DNA of 64,000 nt. Origin: Candidatus Nomurabacteria bacterium. GTDB taxonomy: Bacteria > Patescibacteriota > Minisyncoccia > Phycocordibacterales > UBA5272. The stretch spans positions 122,518-186,517 of the forward strand of contig JAQBRF010000002.1 in NCBI GenBank assembly GCA_028286645.1. The letters are read 5' to 3'. Numbering within the stretch: the stretch's first letter is position 1; every line of letters begins with the position of its first letter. Made by a program: the position numbers and the translations under genes. This document shows, piece after piece, positions 14,299 to 52,964 of the stretch. A model generated the notes under the pieces. It was given only the letters and a program-made list of their open reading frames with translations. It made no database searches and was not told the DNA's origin.

Positions 14299-14393
14299 AA
14301 TTATGGGTAGTTTTTAGTTTCCAGTTATCAGTTTTTAGTTAAAAACGTACAACAGAAACAATTTAATATTAAAAAAGAAACTATAGTTAGTTT

Positions 14394-14493
14394 ACCCCCA
14401 CACCAAAGTTTATACAACAAGTAACTCTTTTAGTTAATATAATTGGAAAGATTATTATTTTAATAACAAAAATTCAAACTTTGGTGTGGGGGT
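14394..14493. repeat. Perfect 18-bp inverted repeat pair (ACCCCCACACCAAAGTTT / AAACTTTGGTGTGGGGGT) around 64 bp of AT-rich DNA
   Basis: Shares the core CCCCACACCAAA with the inverted repeats flanking the GIY-YIG gene at 51993-52288. Confidence 0.6.
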
Positions 14494-14632
14494 TTATCAC
14501 GATATTTAAGAACGACTTAAATTGTTCCGGATACGAGGCGTGCAGAGGTTTTAGAAGGAGGTGTAGATTATACTACTTCAACTAATAAAACTGATAGCAC
14601 AACAAAGTAGATGGGATAATTTTAGACGCTTC

Positions 14633-29108: not shown

Positions 29109-29251
29109 TAGATTATAGATGTTAGATTATACTTTCTTCAAAAGAAAATGACACTGTTTGCGCTTATAAGCGAGTGATCCCTATTTGATATTGATGTGCT
29201 TGGGATATAGCGAAATAAAAACAGGCGACGCTTGCGCGCCGCCTGGCTGAC

Positions 29252-29833
29252 TTAGAGGTTTTCGAAATCCGAAGGCCGTAAGGGCGGGATTCTCCAGGGG
29301 GAAGGCCACCTCAATTCTTTGTAGACGAAGCCATAGAAAGCCCTTCCTTCGTCTTGCGCCAGAAATTGGCACATGAATAAGTCGGCGAGATCGGAATGAA
29401 GCTGGGATAGGGGCTCGCACCCCAGTATTCCGCTCAACATCCTGTACTCGCCATACCGCCCGATTTGGTTTTCGATGGCCCAAGTGGCTACCGCTACTTC
29501 GGCATTACCAGGGTGGTGGTCTTCTCCGAGATAGGTTTGACCAAGAATGCTTTCGTAAAGCTCCCGCCCTCGCTCGCTTACCCCCCAGAGGACAAGCGTA
29601 GTGAGCACGCTCCCACTGTATGAGGTGAGTCCATCGGGAACATTAGAGAGCGTCGCGATGAGCGGGCAAGTGGCCTCTCCCATGCCTACGGACTTCATCG
29701 CGTATACGGCCCAAGCTTTTAGACATTTCACTTGTGCGATGTTTTCCTGATCCACGGGATGGAGTGGTATGGTCCACTCGTCCGTCACTTCGACATCTTG
29801 CGCTCTTGGGTAATCCGCTTCGAAAGCCGCCAT
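29252..29833 (-). CDS. Hypothetical protein (193 aa) in a GC-rich, probably horizontally acquired island
   Basis: ORF track. GC content clearly above background. No recognised domain. Downstream partner of the 2H phosphoesterase gene. Confidence 0.5.
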   Translation of the reverse strand: MAAFEADYPRAQDVEVTDEWTIPLHPVDQENIAQVKCLKAWAVYAMKSVGMGEATCPLIATLSNVPDGLTSYSGSVLTTLVLWGVSERGRELYESILGQTYLGEDHHPGNAEVAVATWAIENQIGRYGEYRMLSGILGCEPLSQLHSDLADLFMCQFLAQDEGRAFYGFVYKELRWPSPWRIPPLRPSDFENL

Positions 29834-49515: not shown

Positions 49516-50125
49516 TTGAAGATTACTAAACGCCACGCGGTTGCGTTTCTCTATACAGCCATATTGATGGGTGTGGCGGTCCTCTACTGCCACTTAATTT
49601 TCACAGGAAAAGTAAAGCCCACGCTCCTTACCTGGCTGATTTTTCTTGTGGCCGTATGTCTTGGCCTCTTTACATATATGCGAGCAAAAAGGAGTTCGCA
49701 TAGCTTGCTTTCGAATATCATCAATACGGCCGATATCGCATTTCTGATATTGATCGTTGGATTCGCCAGCATCTTCGGAAAAGGATTTCCTCTGCACTTT
49801 TCCAGCTTTGATTTATTTATTGTGCAGTGTGATGGCAGGGTTGATAGTGATAGTTTACTTTGTTAGCAGAAATGCCGATTTAGCAAATCTTTCTGTTAAC
49901 CTGCTACTTGTTGTGGGATATCTGCCTCTCTATGAACGTTTAATCACAACAAAGGAGAACACAGAGTCTTTGCTCTGCTGGGTTCTTTCTTTCGTAGCGG
50001 TGGTGATAGGTTCTTACAACGCCTTTTCAAAAGGAGGTGATATTCTCACTAAGATTTATGCAATCCGAGCGCTCCTTTGTTCGGCTGTCGTCATTGGGCT
50101 CATAATTTGGATCGAGCTCGGGTAG
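49516..50125 (+). pseudogene. Multi-pass membrane protein split by a frameshift (ORFs 49516..49866 and 49757..50125)
   Basis: Two overlapping ORFs in different frames, each encoding consecutive TM helices. The frame switch lies near 49780-49800 (ggaaaagg). Hairpin terminator at 50155-50186 downstream. Confidence 0.45.
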
Positions 50126-51118: not shown

Positions 51119-51985
51119 ATGGAATACTTAGTACACATTTTAATCTTCGTTTCGATTTATGGAATCATCGCCCTCTCCCTTGACCTAGTAGTAGGAGTCG
51201 CAGGCCTCCTCTCTGTTACTCAAGCAGCGTTTTATGGAATAGGAGCGTACGTTACCGCGCTTTTATTATTAGGAACTGGGATGAATTTCTTCTTAGCCGC
51301 AATTATCGGGATGATAGTCACGGCTGTGATCGCTCTTGGGGTGGGAGTTGTATTTTCTAGATTTAAATCAGAATTTTATGCGTTAGGATCTTTTGGATTC
51401 AATATCATTGTCTTTAGCATTTTCTTAAATTGGCAATCAGTCACTCGTGGACCGCTAGGGATCCCTGGAATCCCCCGCCCAGAAATATTCGGATTTCAGT
51501 TTTCTGAAAATTCAGCATTCCTTGTTCTTACTTTAGTTATTTTGGCTATTGCTTATGGAGTTTATACATGGATTGAAAAGTCATCATTTGGAAGAGTATT
51601 AAAGGCCATTCGCGAAGATGAAGAGGCGATAAAAGTATTTGGTTATACAACGAGCTATTACAAGTTGGTCATTTTTGTAATTTCTTCAATGCTGGCAGCT
51701 CTTGCAGGATCACTGTTTGCTACTTACATCACTTTCATTGATCCATCGAGCTTTTCATTAAATGAATCGATCTTTATGCTTTCGATAATTATCCTTGGCG
51801 GTCTTTCTTCTAAGCGCGGCGCATTACTTGGGGCATTCTGTTTAATCGTGTTGCCAGAAGTATTGCGATTCGTAGGCTTTCCATCAGATATCGCGGCACA
51901 AATGAGACAAGTTACGTATGGACTTATTTTAATTCTTCTTATGTTGTATCGCCCACAAGGATTGATGGGCGAATTCCGTTTATGA
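51119..51985 (+). CDS. livM: Branched-chain amino acid ABC transporter permease (LivM-like)
   Basis: Multi-TM protein. LSLDLVVGVAGLLSVTQAAFYGIGAYVTAL is a LivM/BraE family signature. Confidence 0.85.
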   Translation: MEYLVHILIFVSIYGIIALSLDLVVGVAGLLSVTQAAFYGIGAYVTALLLLGTGMNFFLAAIIGMIVTAVIALGVGVVFSRFKSEFYALGSFGFNIIVFSIFLNWQSVTRGPLGIPGIPRPEIFGFQFSENSAFLVLTLVILAIAYGVYTWIEKSSFGRVLKAIREDEEAIKVFGYTTSYYKLVIFVISSMLAALAGSLFATYITFIDPSSFSLNESIFMLSIIILGGLSSKRGALLGAFCLIVLPEVLRFVGFPSDIAAQMRQVTYGLILILLMLYRPQGLMGEFRL

Positions 51986-51992
51986 TGTTTTA

Positions 51993-52288
51993 TCCCCACA
52001 CCAAATAAAAATGTTTTATCTTTACATTTTACGCAGCTTGAAAGACAAAAAACTTATACATAGGCTCAACCAATGATCTCAAACGCCGGTTTAGTTTACA
52101 TAATAATAAAAAAGTAAATTCTACCAAATCTCGTGCACCGTTTGAGTTGCTCTACTACGAAGCTTACAAAAGTGAAAAAGATGCACGAGTTAGTGAAAGT
52201 AATTTAAAATTAAGAAGCAGAGCATTGTCGCAACTCAAACTACGTCTAGTGGAGACATTAAAATAACCGTCTATTTGGTGTGGGGGTG
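51993..52288. mobile_element. Putative miniature element: GIY-YIG nuclease gene bounded by terminal inverted repeats ATCCCCACACCAAATA / TATTTGGTGTGGGGGT
   Basis: Inverted repeats of 14-16 bp at 51993-52008 and 52273-52288. A related inverted repeat pair with no cargo occurs at 14394-14493. Confidence 0.45.
52011..52266 (+). pseudogene. GIY-YIG nuclease family (UPF0213/YhbQ-like) gene with a +/-1 frameshift in an A6 run
   Basis: Frame 1 gives MFYLYILRSLKDKKL then a stop. The adjacent frame continues YIGSTNDLKRRFSLHNN...SRAPFELLYYEAYKSEKDARVSESNLK. Together this is a complete GIY-YIG domain. Shift at 52046-52052 (gacaaaaaactt). Confidence 0.7.
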
Positions 52289-52394
52289 TATCGACCACAA
52301 GGATTACTCGGAGAGTTTAAATTATAGATTACATATTGACGGTATTGTATTGGTATTGTAGATTGAGAAGGAAGCATTTAAACTTGGTGTATCC

Positions 52395-52964
52395 TTGAAA
52401 AGGAAAACGACTATGAAAATGACCTTGACTATCCTAGAAGGCCTCTTCGTATTGGGCTTAATTATGTTATGGGTTGCGTATGAATGGGTGCACCACCTTA
52501 TTGAAAAGAAATTCAAAAGCCCCATACGTTCGGCTGTCCGCAGAGCTGCAGTGTCAATCCAACCCACGACATGTATCTCAGAAGCCAAGGCGGTGATTCG
52601 CGACGTCGCACAATTCGAGCATCTCCTCTGGGTTTTTGGTGCAGGAAACGAGAAATGGGACGTGGCGCATAAGCTTTTATTCAACCGGACAAGAGCTCTG
52701 AAGTATCTTGCACAAGTTCATGAGCAAGAGTTGACGGCGCGTCTGATACTTGCCCAATCCGCACGTTTGGAAATCTCTGCCGAGGAAGTGGAAATTGATC
52801 CACTTGAAAAAGTAATCCGCTTCCTGGAAGAAGCAAACACACTTCCGATGAGCTTAACCGAGCATGTTTATGAATGGCGGAAGACCAAGGCGGAACTCGA
52901 TAAACTGAAAGGGACGGACCCTATGTTTCACCCTTGGCGATATCTTACCGCCTCCACCATCTGA
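52395..52964 (+). CDS. Hypothetical protein (189 aa), N-terminal TM helix, moderately GC-rich
   Basis: ORF track. Own terminator at 52990-53016. No recognisable domain. Confidence 0.5.
   Translation: MKRKTTMKMTLTILEGLFVLGLIMLWVAYEWVHHLIEKKFKSPIRSAVRRAAVSIQPTTCISEAKAVIRDVAQFEHLLWVFGAGNEKWDVAHKLLFNRTRALKYLAQVHEQELTARLILAQSARLEISAEEVEIDPLEKVIRFLEEANTLPMSLTEHVYEWRKTKAELDKLKGTDPMFHPWRYLTASTI

What the first reader, a model, noticed from the sequence alone, without database searches (positions are those of the whole stretch)
51993..52288. Frameshifted GIY-YIG nuclease gene bounded by terminal inverted repeats
A complete UPF0213/YhbQ-like GIY-YIG domain is encoded across two frames. A +/-1 slip in an A6 run (52046-52052) separates MFYLYILRSLKDKKL from YIGSTNDLKRRF...SRAPFELLYYEAYKSEKDARVSESNLK. 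The gene sits exactly between inverted repeats ATCCCCACACCAAATA and TATTTGGTGTGGGGGT, inserted between the permease gene and the next operon. This looks like a compact mobile or homing-type cassette, not a chromosomal housekeeping gene. The frameshift could be decay, a sequencing error or programmed slippage.
Basis: seen in the sequence. Interest (0 to 1): 0.65.

Follow-up and report, generated by a model that had tools for sequence, protein, structure and literature searches.

The report
Tiny mobile GIY-YIG nuclease cassette
This is a slightly decayed copy of a roughly 290-bp selfish DNA element, widespread in ultra-small Patescibacteria, that carries a single 84-codon GIY-YIG nuclease gene between conserved inverted repeats. 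The family inserts with a 4-bp target duplication and has shorter gene-less relatives, a combination I did not find described.

Summary
An 84-codon GIY-YIG gene (52011-52266) is split by one extra A in an A-run (A6, 52047-52052). It lies between a perfect 14-bp inverted repeat (51994-52007 / 52272-52285).

The mobile-cassette reading is supported and can be made sharper.
- The same repeat core (CCCCCACACC...GGTGTGGGGG) brackets homologous genes in 63 of 85 copies from different Patescibacteria, in unrelated genomic contexts.
- 4-bp flanking duplications occur in 24 of 61 units against 3.1 expected, and in 35 of 121 independent metagenomic units against 8.7 expected.
- A natural empty allele confirms one insertion to the base.
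- Gene-less units of 27-38 bp and 98-141 bp share the same ends. One sits in this window at 14395-14492, flanked by TTTA/TTTA.

Here the element interrupts a displaced second copy of the last 15 livM codons. It lies just downstream of an intact replacement copy, so the permease stays whole.

No relative shares the frameshift. It is a mutation or an assembly error, not programmed.

The closest known system is Ssn/NTS (GIY-YIG single-strand nucleases flanked by hairpin repeats, 2025). The Ssn repeat motif is absent here, and target duplications were not reported for Ssn. That the nuclease itself drives mobility is inferred, not shown.

The parts
51119..51985 (+). livM-type branched-chain amino-acid ABC permease (288 aa), intact host gene. 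Its last 15 codons (51941-51985, MLYRPQGLMGEFRL*) are the functional 'unit 1' copy of the 3' end.
   Evidence: ORF. It is 100% identical to database protein P0121 (NCBI MDB5259982.1, MAG, 251,735-bp contig). The nearest relatives are 79% and 76% identical.
51979..51992 (+). Left flank of the element, TTTATGATGTTTTA. This is the start of a second, displaced copy of the livM 3' end ('unit 2'). It overlaps the livM stop and includes the left copy of the putative 4-bp target duplication, TTTA (51989-51992).
   Evidence: Left flank plus right flank reconstitute FMMLYRPQGLLGEFKL* in one frame. ATGTTTTATC at 51985 also equals the first 10 nt of the GIY ORF (repeat D7), so an alternative origin cannot be excluded.
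51993..52007 (.). Left terminal inverted repeat, (T)CCCCACACCAAATA. The family core is CCCCCACACC, and the outermost C appears mutated to T in this copy.
   Evidence: Perfect 14-nt complement of 52272-52285. The same core flanks 63 of 85 homologous genes.
52011..52266 (+). GIY-YIG nuclease gene, 84 codons once one A is removed. It is a single domain with no DNA-binding extension.
   Evidence: Pfam PF01541 at E=6e-17, residues 1-71. Two tblastn segments in frames 3 and 1. Best homologues are 74-76% identical and 83-87 aa long. All 33 columns invariant in an 18-sequence alignment are kept, and R61S is the one deviation I identified by eye among the 11 columns conserved at 90% or more.
52047..52052 (+). 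A6 run holding the frameshift. A5 would give KDKNLYIGS, the family consensus.
   Evidence: No relative is frameshifted here.
52272..52286 (.). Right terminal inverted repeat, TATTTGGTGTGGGGG.
52287..52327 (+). Remainder of the displaced livM 3'-end copy (unit 2): TGTA (right copy of the putative target duplication, 3 of 4 identical to TTTA), then TCGACCACAAGGATTACTCGGAGAGTTTAAATTATAG, which reads (Y)RPQGLLGEFKL*.
   Evidence: repeat D2 (81% over 31 nt). Upstream and downstream flanks match at protein level with z=6.7, the strongest of 41 elements scanned.
14395..14492 (.). Gene-less 98-bp unit of the same family. It has 17-18-nt perfect arms CCCCCACACCAAAGTTT / AAACTTTGGTGTGGGGG around a 64-nt AT-rich centre, and is flanked by TTTA (14391-14394) and TTTA (14493-14496). 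It lies between rpsO and a NYN-domain gene.
   Evidence: The arms pair in the predicted single-stranded DNA fold, z=-5.5.

Best explanation
Window 51993-52286 is a slightly decayed copy of a compact selfish DNA element family of Patescibacteria (CPR bacteria).

Anatomy. The element is about 285-320 bp. It holds one 84-codon single-domain GIY-YIG nuclease gene packed between 12-22-bp terminal inverted repeats. The outer core of the repeats is conserved (CCCCCACACC ... GGTGTGGGGG). The repeats often overlap the start and stop codons.

Shown:
- The repeats are a conserved part of the gene family and are found in many unrelated insertion sites.
- Insertion duplicates 4 bp of target, often T-rich TNNA.
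- Gene-less derivatives of 27-38 bp and 98-141 bp share the same ends and flanking duplications. One lies in this window.
- In this genome the element interrupts a second copy of the last 15 livM codons, directly downstream of an intact copy that keeps LivM whole.
- The same 'replacement C-terminus + element + displaced native C-terminus' layout occurs at an hsdS gene. There a natural empty allele fixes the insertion point to the base.

Inferred:
- The nuclease recognises its own ends, probably as a hairpin or in single-stranded DNA, by analogy with SsnA and its NTS hairpins. It would cut at element and target boundaries, and host repair or ligation would complete movement.
- Once lodged in a conserved gene end, the composite spreads between genomes by recombination through the duplicated gene ends, in a homing-like way.

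The frameshift is one extra A in an A5 run that no relative shares. It is an inactivating mutation (my estimate about 60%) or an assembly error (about 37%), not programmed slippage.
For: Repeat and gene.
- Perfect 14-nt inverted repeat, above chance. GIY-YIG domain at E=6e-17.
- A homologue 71% identical, behind a sortase gene on a 765-kb contig, has the same repeat: CCCCCACACCAATA|ATG...TAG C TATTGGTGTGGGGG.
- 63 of 85 gene copies, mostly from different GTDB species, have a flanking inverted repeat scoring 10 or more, nearly all with this core.
- Protein identity tracks arm sequence: 70% mean identity for identical arms against about 61% otherwise, rho=-0.53.

Target duplication.
- 4-bp flanking direct repeats in 24 of 61 units against 3.1 expected from shuffling flanks between units.
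- Replicated on 121 independent metagenomic ~100-nt units: 35 against 8.7 expected.
- Empty allele: the hsdS of L089 is 94.7% identical to that of L216, which lacks the element. The insertion is at ...AAAAATCC[CACG]^AAGCC... with CACG on both sides.

Gene-less units. Listed. The 7-mer core occurs 81 and 84 times on the two strands in 514 kb, against about 13 expected per strand.

Patchy distribution at livM.
- The closest GIY homologue (74%) and another (73%) also follow a 288-aa LivM gene.
- The two nearest LivM relatives (79% and 76%) have no insert.
- LivM of the window and of L001 are only 61.5% identical, although their GIY proteins are 74% identical.

Duplicated livM end. The copies differ by 5 synonymous codon changes, 2 conservative replacements and a stop-to-stop change.

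Subfamily target preference. tRNA-His 3' end in four genomes, in both orientations, and tRNA-Ala 5' end in two.

Analogy to Ssn. hhalign against the N. gonorrhoeae SsnA homologue gives probability 96%, E=1.5e-9, 31% identity. The Ssn biology is taken from PMC11893778.
Against: - No enzymology. GIY-YIG enzymes are hydrolytic nucleases with no known strand-transfer chemistry, and 84 aa leaves no room for a separate DNA-binding domain.
- No near-identical units were found at different sites. The best inner identities in different flanks are 75-81%, so recent transposition is not demonstrated.
- Perfect 4-bp duplications occur in only about 30-40% of units. This copy has 3 of 4 (TTTA/TGTA) and a mutated outer repeat base.
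- The closest homologue at the same livM site (L001) has no flanking repeat around the gene, only a decayed repeat unit downstream.
- All loci were selected either by the gene or by the repeat pattern, so genome-wide co-occurrence of the nuclease and the gene-less units is untested.
- Which livM end copy is native is not resolved. Unit 2 matches L087 at 38 of 51 positions and unit 1 at 36 of 51.
Confidence: 0.75

Rival explanations
1. Classical free-standing homing endonuclease gene. The nuclease cleaves naive livM 3' ends, and the cassette is copied in by double-strand-break repair. The inverted repeats would be incidental.
For: - Same livM site in three genomes.
- The GIY protein is more conserved than the host LivM between the window and L001.
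- The nearest relatives have empty sites.
- The gene 3' end is duplicated with a divergence pattern typical of functional orthologues. This matches the layout of fungal mitochondrial mobile ORFs (PMC3630166).
Against: - The repeats are conserved across the family and come with 4-bp target duplications at many unrelated sites.
- Gene-less units with the same ends exist.
- The protein lacks the C-terminal DNA-binding domain of I-TevI/Seg-type enzymes. TIGR01453 scores 23.8 bits against a cut-off of 56.
- The family is almost absent from 2.9 million viral contigs.
- Homing-like spread probably operates in addition to insertion, not instead of it.
Confidence: 0.25
2. The GIY-YIG gene is a passenger. 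The inverted-repeat units are miniature transposable elements moved in trans by an unidentified conventional transposase, and some units happen to carry the nuclease gene.
For: - Most repeat units seen are gene-less. Only 15 of 120 metagenomic loci with a ~100-nt unit also hold a GIY homologue.
- GIY-YIG chemistry is not known to perform transposition.
Against: - The only cargo ever seen in the longer units is this one gene, in more than 40 species.
- It is fitted so tightly that start and stop codons overlap the repeats.
- Arm sequence and protein sequence co-vary.
- No transposase gene is linked in any locus examined (gene tables).
Confidence: 0.2
3. A domesticated Ssn-type host nuclease with its cognate regulatory repeats, for example limiting incoming single-stranded DNA, and not itself mobile.
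For: - Homology to the SsnA homologue.
- Same small single-domain size.
- Gene flanked by its own repeats, with further copies elsewhere.
- In L010 the gene lies between two ~100-nt repeat units in inverted orientation, much like NTS-ssnA-NTS.
Against: - The Ssn repeat motif is absent: 0 hits in the 64-kb window and 7 in 457 kb of CPR loci, against 7 in 1.6 kb of the Neisseria control.
- Target duplications, the empty allele and the many unrelated sites show that the unit inserts as a block.
- This copy is frameshifted.
Confidence: 0.15
4. Programmed frameshifting or transcriptional slippage at the A6 run regulates expression of an intact nuclease.
For: The shift lies in a homopolymer run, and the rest of the ORF keeps every invariant residue.
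Against: - None of the 120 best homologues, nor the ~85 genomic copies examined, is frameshifted or has an A-run at this position.
- From general knowledge, A6 is shorter than the runs known to give efficient slippage.
Confidence: 0.03
5. An ordinary stand-alone GIY-YIG gene with a chance inverted repeat and a sequencing error.
For: The frameshift alone is compatible with an error.
Against: Repeat statistics and the second copy in the window, family-wide conservation of the repeat, target duplications and the duplicated livM end.
Confidence: 0.02

Closest known systems
Ssn nucleases with NTS/SRM repeats (SsnA of Neisseria meningitidis; Chenal et al., Nat Commun 2025, PMC11893778)
   Same: - Small single-domain GIY-YIG protein (94 aa against 84 aa).
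- Gene flanked on both sides by its own inverted-repeat sequences, with many further copies elsewhere.
- The authors themselves note that the layout looks like an insertion sequence.
- Detectable homology: hhalign probability 96%, E=1.5e-9.
   Different: - The repeat is unrelated in sequence, and the published SRM search motif finds nothing here.
- Here the two arms pair with each other across the gene, whereas in Ssn each flank is its own hairpin.
- 4-bp target duplications, an empty allele and three size classes were not reported in the parts of the Ssn paper I read.
- The host range is Patescibacteria, which that paper does not mention.
- Pairwise BLASTP gives E=4e-11 for a single comparison, which would not pass the paper's proteome-scale threshold of 1e-10.
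REP sequences with RAYT transposases (IS200/IS605 relatives)
   Same: One nuclease gene bracketed by inverted copies of a short palindromic repeat that is also scattered through the genome as gene-less singlets and doublets. Hairpin or single-strand recognition is the likely logic.
   Different: RAYTs are HUH/Y1 enzymes, not GIY-YIG. From general knowledge, IS200/IS605-type movement makes no target duplication, whereas these units have 4-bp duplications.
Mobile endonuclease ORFs of fungal mitochondria that carry a replacement gene C-terminus (Allomyces atp6; Glomus atp6, atp9, cox2, nad3; Beaudet et al. 2013, PMC3630166)
   Same: Same layout: gene body, then a diverged in-phase replacement C-terminus, then the endonuclease ORF (GIY-YIG in atp9), then the displaced native C-terminus. 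It is seen here at livM (window) and at hsdS (L089).
   Different: Those ORFs are much larger, and no terminal inverted repeats or target duplications are mentioned in the passages read. Here 8-14 nt of the displaced copy lie between the replacement end and the left repeat.
Free-standing and intron-encoded GIY-YIG homing endonucleases (I-TevI, Seg and Mob of T4-like phages)
   Same: GIY-YIG catalytic domain, and selfish spread into conserved genes.
   Different: From general knowledge, those enzymes are about 200-250 aa with a separate DNA-binding domain. Here TIGR01453 scores below its cut-off, there is no intron (Rfam: nothing), and the family is nearly absent from viral contigs.
Bacterial MITEs and insertion sequences with terminal inverted repeats and target duplications
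   Same: Terminal inverted repeats, a short fixed-length target duplication, and longer coding units alongside shorter gene-less units.
   Different: No DDE, serine, tyrosine or HUH transposase is present; the only encoded protein is a GIY-YIG nuclease. The coding unit of about 290 bp is, from memory, far smaller than any known autonomous insertion sequence.
UPF0213 / YhbQ / YazA family (PDB 1zg2, 1ywl)
   Same: Best solved-structure relatives by sequence profile: E=1e-9 and 1e-5. Similar size.
   Different: Only a distant relationship, about 40% identity to YazA by tblastn. No association of UPF0213 genes with terminal repeats is known to me.

Membership tests
GIY-YIG nuclease superfamily (Pfam PF01541) | Significant match to the GIY-YIG catalytic domain profile | tested here: met
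   E=6.2e-17, 62.1 bits against a cut-off of 22.6, residues 1-71 of the frame-corrected protein.
GIY-YIG nuclease superfamily (Pfam PF01541) | Conserved motif residues present (GIY and YIG tyrosines, Arg, His, metal-binding Glu, Asn) | tested here: met
   Y5, Y16, G18, R26, H30, E62 and N64 are among the 33 invariant columns of alignment A1, and the window copy keeps them. Assigning these positions to catalytic roles rests on general knowledge of the superfamily.
Ssn family (CDD cd10448, Chenal et al. 2025) | Single-domain GIY-YIG protein of about 90-100 aa | tested here: met
   84 aa, with the Pfam domain covering residues 1-71 and no other domain.
Ssn family (CDD cd10448, Chenal et al. 2025) | Best CDD assignment is cd10448, or placement inside the Ssn clade | not testable with these tools
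   No CDD search was available. Proxies: hhalign to the N. gonorrhoeae SsnA homologue gives E=1.5e-9, about the same as the profile hit to UPF0213 1zg2 at E=1e-9. Placement is unresolved.
Ssn family (CDD cd10448, Chenal et al. 2025) | BLASTP hit to Nm SsnA at E<1e-10 with at least 75% cover, in a proteome-scale search | tested here: inconclusive
   Against the N. gonorrhoeae homologue: 34% identity over 79 aa, E=4e-11 for one pairwise comparison. Scaled to a proteome this would miss 1e-10. The Nm protein itself was not available.
Ssn family (CDD cd10448, Chenal et al. 2025) | Gene flanked by SRM hairpin repeats (HGTCWY...RNCYNB motif) within 500 bp on both sides | tested here: not met
   0 matches within 500 bp of the gene and 0 in the whole 64-kb window. 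7 matches in 457 kb of CPR loci. The positive control gave 7 in 1.6 kb of the Neisseria locus.
Ssn family (CDD cd10448, Chenal et al. 2025) | Site-specific cleavage of single-stranded DNA only | not testable with these tools
   Needs biochemistry.
Homing endonuclease of the I-TevI / group I intron type (TIGR01453) | GIY-YIG domain joined to a C-terminal DNA-binding domain, with the family model above its cut-off | tested here: not met
   TIGR01453 scores 23.8 bits against a cut-off of 56.05, matching only residues 4-40. The protein ends at residue 84.
Homing endonuclease of the I-TevI / group I intron type (TIGR01453) | Residence in a self-splicing intron or intein | tested here: not met
   No Rfam family at E<=1 in 51800-52500. 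The 264 nt between the repeats are almost entirely ORF.
Transposable element with terminal inverted repeats (IS / MITE type) | Conserved terminal inverted repeats | tested here: met
   14-nt perfect repeat here. 63 of 85 family members have one.
Transposable element with terminal inverted repeats (IS / MITE type) | Fixed-length target site duplication | tested here: met
   Family level: 24 of 61 against 3.1 expected, and 35 of 121 against 8.7 expected. Confirmed against an empty allele. The gene-less unit in the window has TTTA/TTTA. The GIY unit in the window has only 3 of 4 (TTTA/TGTA).
Transposable element with terminal inverted repeats (IS / MITE type) | Copies at different, non-homologous sites | tested here: met
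   After livM, sortase, hsdS, at tRNA-His, at tRNA-Ala, and in intergenic sites.
Transposable element with terminal inverted repeats (IS / MITE type) | Encodes a recognised transposase | tested here: not met
   The only ORF is the GIY-YIG nuclease.
Transposable element with terminal inverted repeats (IS / MITE type) | Evidence of recent movement (near-identical copies in different flanks) | tested here: not met
   No pair with at least 85% inner identity and different flanks among 138 gene-less units. The best pairs are 75-81%. Sampling was almost entirely one unit per genome.
UPF0213 / YhbQ | Close sequence relationship to characterised members | tested here: inconclusive
   Profile hits to 1zg2 at E=1e-9 and 1ywl at E=1e-5. 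tblastn to B. subtilis yazA gives 40.6% identity, E=2e-6. Distant only.

The most novel reading that the evidence does not exclude
The 84-aa GIY-YIG nuclease is itself the mobility enzyme of a new class of prokaryotic DNA transposon. By my recollection it would be the smallest autonomous one known, at about 290 bp. Its own 30-140-bp derivatives litter Patescibacteria genomes. It would act on hairpin or single-stranded forms of its terminal repeats, make a 4-nt staggered target cut, and rely on host repair. It would also preserve the host genes it hits, by mimicking tRNA ends or by carrying a replacement gene C-terminus. This would also suggest how Ssn-type repeats spread in other bacteria.
Probability: 0.35. 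Interest if true: 0.85.

Novelty: new variant of a known kind. Interest (0 to 1): 0.7.

Why it matters
- If the nuclease moves the element, this would be a transposition mode based on a GIY-YIG hydrolase, in a unit barely larger than its 255-bp gene.
- It would supply the mobility evidence (target duplications, an empty allele, size classes) that the 2025 Ssn work did not report for its insertion-sequence-like layout.
- It identifies a repeat family (CCCCCACACC core) that is common in Patescibacteria genomes. Such repeats can confuse assembly, binning and gene calling: upstream ORFs read through the repeat, and gene ends are duplicated.
- The many nuclease and repeat variants form a natural library of small sequence-specific nucleases, the kind of reagent the Ssn paper proposes for single-stranded DNA tools.
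- The replacement-C-terminus layout shows that a strategy known from fungal mitochondrial mobile ORFs also occurs in bacteria.

Tried and rejected
- **Programmed frameshift.** Rejected, because no homologue shares the shift or the A-run.
- **Intact (A5) or identical (A6) allele in public metagenomes.** An exact pattern allowing both found nothing, so the sequencing-error question stays open.
- **Exact look-ups of the window's LivM.** These failed although the protein is in the database, so the source contig and its other samples could not be read.
- **Ssn repeat motif.** Absent.
- **Known RNA families, terminators, promoters around the element.** None above chance.
- **Phage origin.** Only 4 distant hits in the viral contig collection.
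- **Other frameshifted genes in the window, as a sign of an error-prone assembly.** Three overlapping ORF pairs were checked against Pfam. One ORF is a complete sigma factor and the others have no hits. No second frameshift was shown, and the large ORFs are intact.
- **Gene-end duplication as a general feature.** A protein-level scan of both flanks of 41 elements gave clear signals only for the window (z=6.7) and L089 (z=3.6). Three weaker signals proved to be chance on inspection.
- **Recent bursts of the gene-less units.** None seen.
- **Which livM end copy is native.** Comparison with relatives is inconclusive over 51 nt.
- **Literature.** Searches for the repeat sequence, for GIY-YIG in Patescibacteria, and for GIY-YIG with terminal repeats and target duplications found no description of this family.
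Full report
**1. What is in the sequence**

The window has 39% G+C.

The gene.
- An ORF starts at ATG 52011, reads MFYLYILRSLKDKKL and stops after 21 codons.
- Frame 1 continues from 52042 as KTKNLYIGSTNDLKRRF...VETLK and stops at 52264-52266.
- The two frames meet in an A6 run at 52047-52052.
- Deleting one A gives an 84-aa protein. It matches Pfam GIY-YIG at E=6.2e-17 over residues 1-71 and has no other domain.
- The restored sequence KDKNLYIGS equals the family consensus KDxNLYIGS.

The repeat.
- The ORF lies between a perfect 14-nt inverted repeat, CCCCACACCAAATA (51994-52007) and TATTTGGTGTGGGG (52272-52285).
- With up to two mismatches the motif occurs five times in the window against 0.31 expected.

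**2.

A second unit with the same ends.
- Two of the extra motif hits form a second inverted pair at 14395-14492.
- It has 17-18-nt perfect arms (CCCCCACACCAAAGTTT) around a 64-nt AT-rich centre, with no ORF. It lies between rpsO and a NYN-domain gene.

A duplicated livM end.
- The 3' end of livM is present twice. The intact gene ends ...LLMLYRPQGLMGEFRL* at 51985.
- Right after the right-hand repeat the sequence reads TGTATCGACCACAAGGATTACTCGGAGAGTTTAAATTATAG, that is (Y)RPQGLLGEFKL* (repeat D2).
- Joining the 14 nt left of the element (TTTATGATGTTTTA) to this right flank, counting the 4-nt junction once, gives one open frame, FMMLYRPQGLLGEFKL*.
- So the element interrupts a second copy of the livM end that begins directly at the stop codon of the first.
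- Over the 15 codons from the ATG, the two copies differ by five synonymous codon changes, two conservative replacements (M/L, R/K) and a stop-to-stop change.
- That is the pattern of two functional orthologues, not of a decaying local duplicate.

**3. The inverted repeat belongs to the gene family**

- The frame-corrected protein has hundreds of relatives of 83-87 aa, at best 74-76% identical, in Patescibacteria metagenome-assembled genomes.
- One at 71% identity lies behind a sortase gene on a 765-kb contig. It is bracketed by CCCCCACACCAATA|ATG ... TAG-C-TATTGGTGTGGGGG.
- I scanned 85 gene copies: 80 loci of GTDB species representatives (a few hold a second copy), the earlier loci and the window. 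63 have a flanking inverted repeat scoring at least 10, nearly all with the core CCC(C)CACACC / GGTGTGGG(G).
- The right arm commonly overlaps the stop codon (TAATTTGGTGTGGGGGT, TAGGTGTGGGGGT). The left arm abuts or overlaps the ATG, or lies 15-28 nt upstream.
- The inner part of the arms differs between loci but stays complementary.
- Protein identity is higher between copies with identical arms (70%) than otherwise (about 61%; rho=-0.53). The pairs are not independent, so this is descriptive only.
- The family is sizeable: 412 cluster representatives (50% identity level) at E<=1e-10 and 4436 at E<=1e-3.

**4. Evidence that the unit inserts as a block**

Target duplication.
- I took the ends at the C-run and the G-run. 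24 of 61 units in the gene-selected loci have identical 4-nt sequences immediately outside both ends. Shuffling flanks between units, which keeps the strong T...A composition, gives 3.1 expected.
- The duplicated words vary: TAAA, TTTA, TTGA, TTAT, TGGA, TAGA, TCAA, CCTA, CATG, AAAA, ATAA.
- An independent sample came from a metagenome scan for CCCCCACACCAA-N65-95-TTGGTGTGGGGG. Of 121 distinct units, 35 have perfect 4-nt duplications against 8.7 expected.
- Some units without a duplication belong to a subfamily whose repeats extend further out (GCGAATTGAA-CCCCC...).

A natural empty allele.
- In L089 the element carries a nuclease 74% identical to the window's and lies in the 3' end of an hsdS gene, with CACG on both sides.
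- The hsdS of L216 is 94.7% identical over 1334 nt and lacks the element. It reads ...AAAAATCC[CACG]AAGCC... at exactly that point.

**5. Size classes**

Units with the same ends fall into three groups:
- hairpins of 27-38 bp with a loop of 0-6 nt;
- gene-less units of 98-141 bp;
- gene-bearing units of mostly 283-345 bp.

The 7-mer core occurs 81 and 84 times on the two strands in 514 kb of loci, against about 13 expected per strand. The gene-less ~100-nt units have related inner sequences in different flanks: up to 75-81% identity, against a background median of 52%. This holds for pairs on one contig too. No near-identical copies were seen, so recent activity is not shown. The window's 98-bp unit is flanked by TTTA/TTTA.

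**6. Target choice and protection of the host gene**

- A subfamily with CACCCACACC ends lies at the 3' end of tRNA-His(GTG) in four genomes, in both orientations.
- Others lie at the 5' end of tRNA-Ala(GGC). There the element's terminal G-run plus the duplicated CCTA regenerates the tRNA 5' end.
- At protein-coding genes a different solution appears. In L089 an 85-nt in-frame copy of the hsdS C-terminal region lies a few nucleotides upstream of the left repeat. It is much more diverged than the rest of the gene.
- The native C-terminus in L089 is 81-83% identical to the relatives and has lost its stop. It lies downstream of the right repeat.
- The window's livM has the same layout.
- A protein-level scan of both flanks of 41 elements singles out these two cases, with z=6.7 and z=3.6.
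- This matches the 'gene hybrids' made by mobile endonuclease ORFs in fungal mitochondria: foreign C-terminus, endonuclease ORF, displaced native C-terminus (PMC3630166).

**7. The livM site**

- The best homologue (74%, L001) and another (73%) also follow a 288-aa LivM gene.
- The two nearest LivM relatives of the window (79% and 76%) have nothing between livM and the next gene.
- LivM of the window and of L001 are only 61.5% identical, less than their nucleases.
- The insert is therefore patchy, and better conserved than its host gene. This argues for horizontal spread to the same site rather than simple vertical descent.
- L001 differs in detail. Its nuclease gene starts at the livM stop (TGATG) without a flanking repeat. 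A partial livM end copy (TTGATGATGTA) follows, and then what I read by eye as a decayed repeat unit inserted at the same TGTA position.
- I could not reconstruct the order of events. I also could not decide which livM end copy in the window is native.

**8. The frameshift**

- None of the 120 best database homologues, nor the genomic copies examined, is interrupted. None has an A-run at this position. Programmed slippage is therefore very unlikely.
- The ORF keeps all 33 alignment-invariant residues. By eye it departs at one column conserved at 90% or more (R61S). Any inactivation is thus recent, or the extra A is an error.
- The rest of the window shows long intact ORFs and no demonstrable second frameshift. 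That makes a random assembly error in this particular 255-nt gene a priori unlikely, but it does not exclude one.
- A metagenome search for either allele found nothing.

**9. Comparison with known systems**

The closest described system is the Ssn family (PMC11893778).
- Its members are single-domain GIY-YIG proteins of about 94 aa that cut single-stranded DNA next to a hairpin repeat (NTS/SRM).
- That repeat flanks their own gene and is scattered in hundreds of copies. The authors remark on the insertion-sequence-like layout and on the parallel with REP/RAYT.

To compare directly, I recovered the N. gonorrhoeae ssnA homologue, with its flanking repeats, from a chromosome mislabelled as a plasmid.
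- The CPR family aligns to it at hhalign probability 96%, E=1.5e-9, 31% identity.
- That is about as well as it matches UPF0213 proteins of known structure.
- The published SRM search motif finds nothing here.
- The Ssn paper does not mention Patescibacteria.
- Target duplications, an empty allele and size classes do not appear in the sections of that paper I read.

I therefore treat this as something that probably works like an Ssn-repeat pair but is a distinct variant with demonstrable insertion behaviour. Literature searches found no description of the CCCCCACACC repeats, nor of a prokaryotic GIY-YIG element with terminal repeats and target duplications.

**10. Mechanism: shown and inferred**

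Shown:
- conserved ends and a 4-bp duplication;
- insertion at many sites, and one exact empty allele;
- gene-less derivatives;
- host-gene-preserving layouts;
- patchy distribution at livM.

Inferred:
- The nuclease binds its own ends. The two arms pair in predicted single-stranded folds, and SsnA acts on hairpins in single-stranded DNA.
- It makes the cuts that free or insert the unit.
- Host enzymes finish the job.
- Recombination through duplicated gene ends spreads established insertions.

A passenger-gene model and a purely domesticated-nuclease model remain possible, at lower probability.

**11. Verdict**

The copy in this window is an ordinary, probably dead, member of its family. The family itself is the point of interest.

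Noticed in passing
window 14391-14496: 98-bp gene-less unit with the same repeat core as the GIY element. It has 17-18-nt perfect arms and TTTA on both sides, and lies between rpsO and a NYN-domain gene.
   Followed up: yes
window 51941-51985 and 51979-51992 + 52287-52327: The last 15 codons of livM are present twice. The copies differ mostly at synonymous sites, and the downstream copy is interrupted by the element.
   Followed up: yes
window 51985-51994 and 52011-52020: ATGTTTTATC occurs twice: once overlapping the livM stop (TGATG) and once as the start of the GIY ORF. In L001 the GIY ORF starts exactly at such a TGATG overlap. It may be a relic of an older arrangement, or it may reflect similarity between the livM codons ATGTTGTATC and the GIY start.
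   Followed up: partly
window 52372-52404: AAACTTGGTGTATCC resembles a right repeat arm lacking its G-run, and pairs at 79% with 51998-52016 (I2 and D1). It could be a degenerate end or chance.
   Followed up: no
window 52395-52964: A 189-aa ORF with no Pfam match lies between the element and the substrate-binding protein genes. The nearest livM relatives have no such gene at this place, so it may have arrived with the insert.
   Followed up: no
window 49516-50125 and 29181-29833: Pairs of overlapping same-strand ORFs in different frames with no Pfam hits. They could be split genes or spurious ORFs.
   Followed up: partly
L085 about 2800-2860: A perfect 37-nt hairpin CCTCCCCACCAATTAAG-TACC-TTAATTGGTGGGGAGG abuts the 5' end of a tRNA-Ser gene, with GAGGCGTG on both sides. 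Its core variant lacks one AC. A GIY gene without flanking repeats lies about 60 nt upstream.
   Followed up: partly
L053, L055, L068, L076 (element ends at tRNA-His): The CACCCACACC subfamily sits at the 3' end of tRNA-His(GTG) in four genomes, in both orientations. The element end overlaps and mimics the tRNA 3' end, so the flanking direct repeat is effectively 8-10 nt.
   Followed up: partly
L010 2316-2416 and 3259-3359: This GIY gene is flanked by two ~100-nt repeat units that are 76% identical in inverted orientation. The layout is closer to NTS-ssnA-NTS than to the tight repeat-gene-repeat form.
   Followed up: partly
L030 3283-3735: Three repeat units in tandem within 450 nt, just downstream of a GIY gene.
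   Followed up: no
L001 1716-2117: A gene with 23S_rRNA_IVP / bAvd domains (the accessory protein type of diversity-generating retroelements) sits between the two liv permease genes.
   Followed up: no
L086 (NZ_CP119142.1) and NZ_CP119140.1: Two 2.17-Mb Neisseria gonorrhoeae chromosomes are filed as plasmids in the plasmid collection. The ssnA homologue there has no ATG, GTG or TTG start in frame before residue 27 of the aligned region.
   Followed up: no
metagenome loci L092, L094, L099, L110, L113: A subfamily of ~100-nt units has longer terminal repeats that extend about 10 nt beyond the C-run (GCGAATTGAA-CCCCCACACC...).
   Followed up: no
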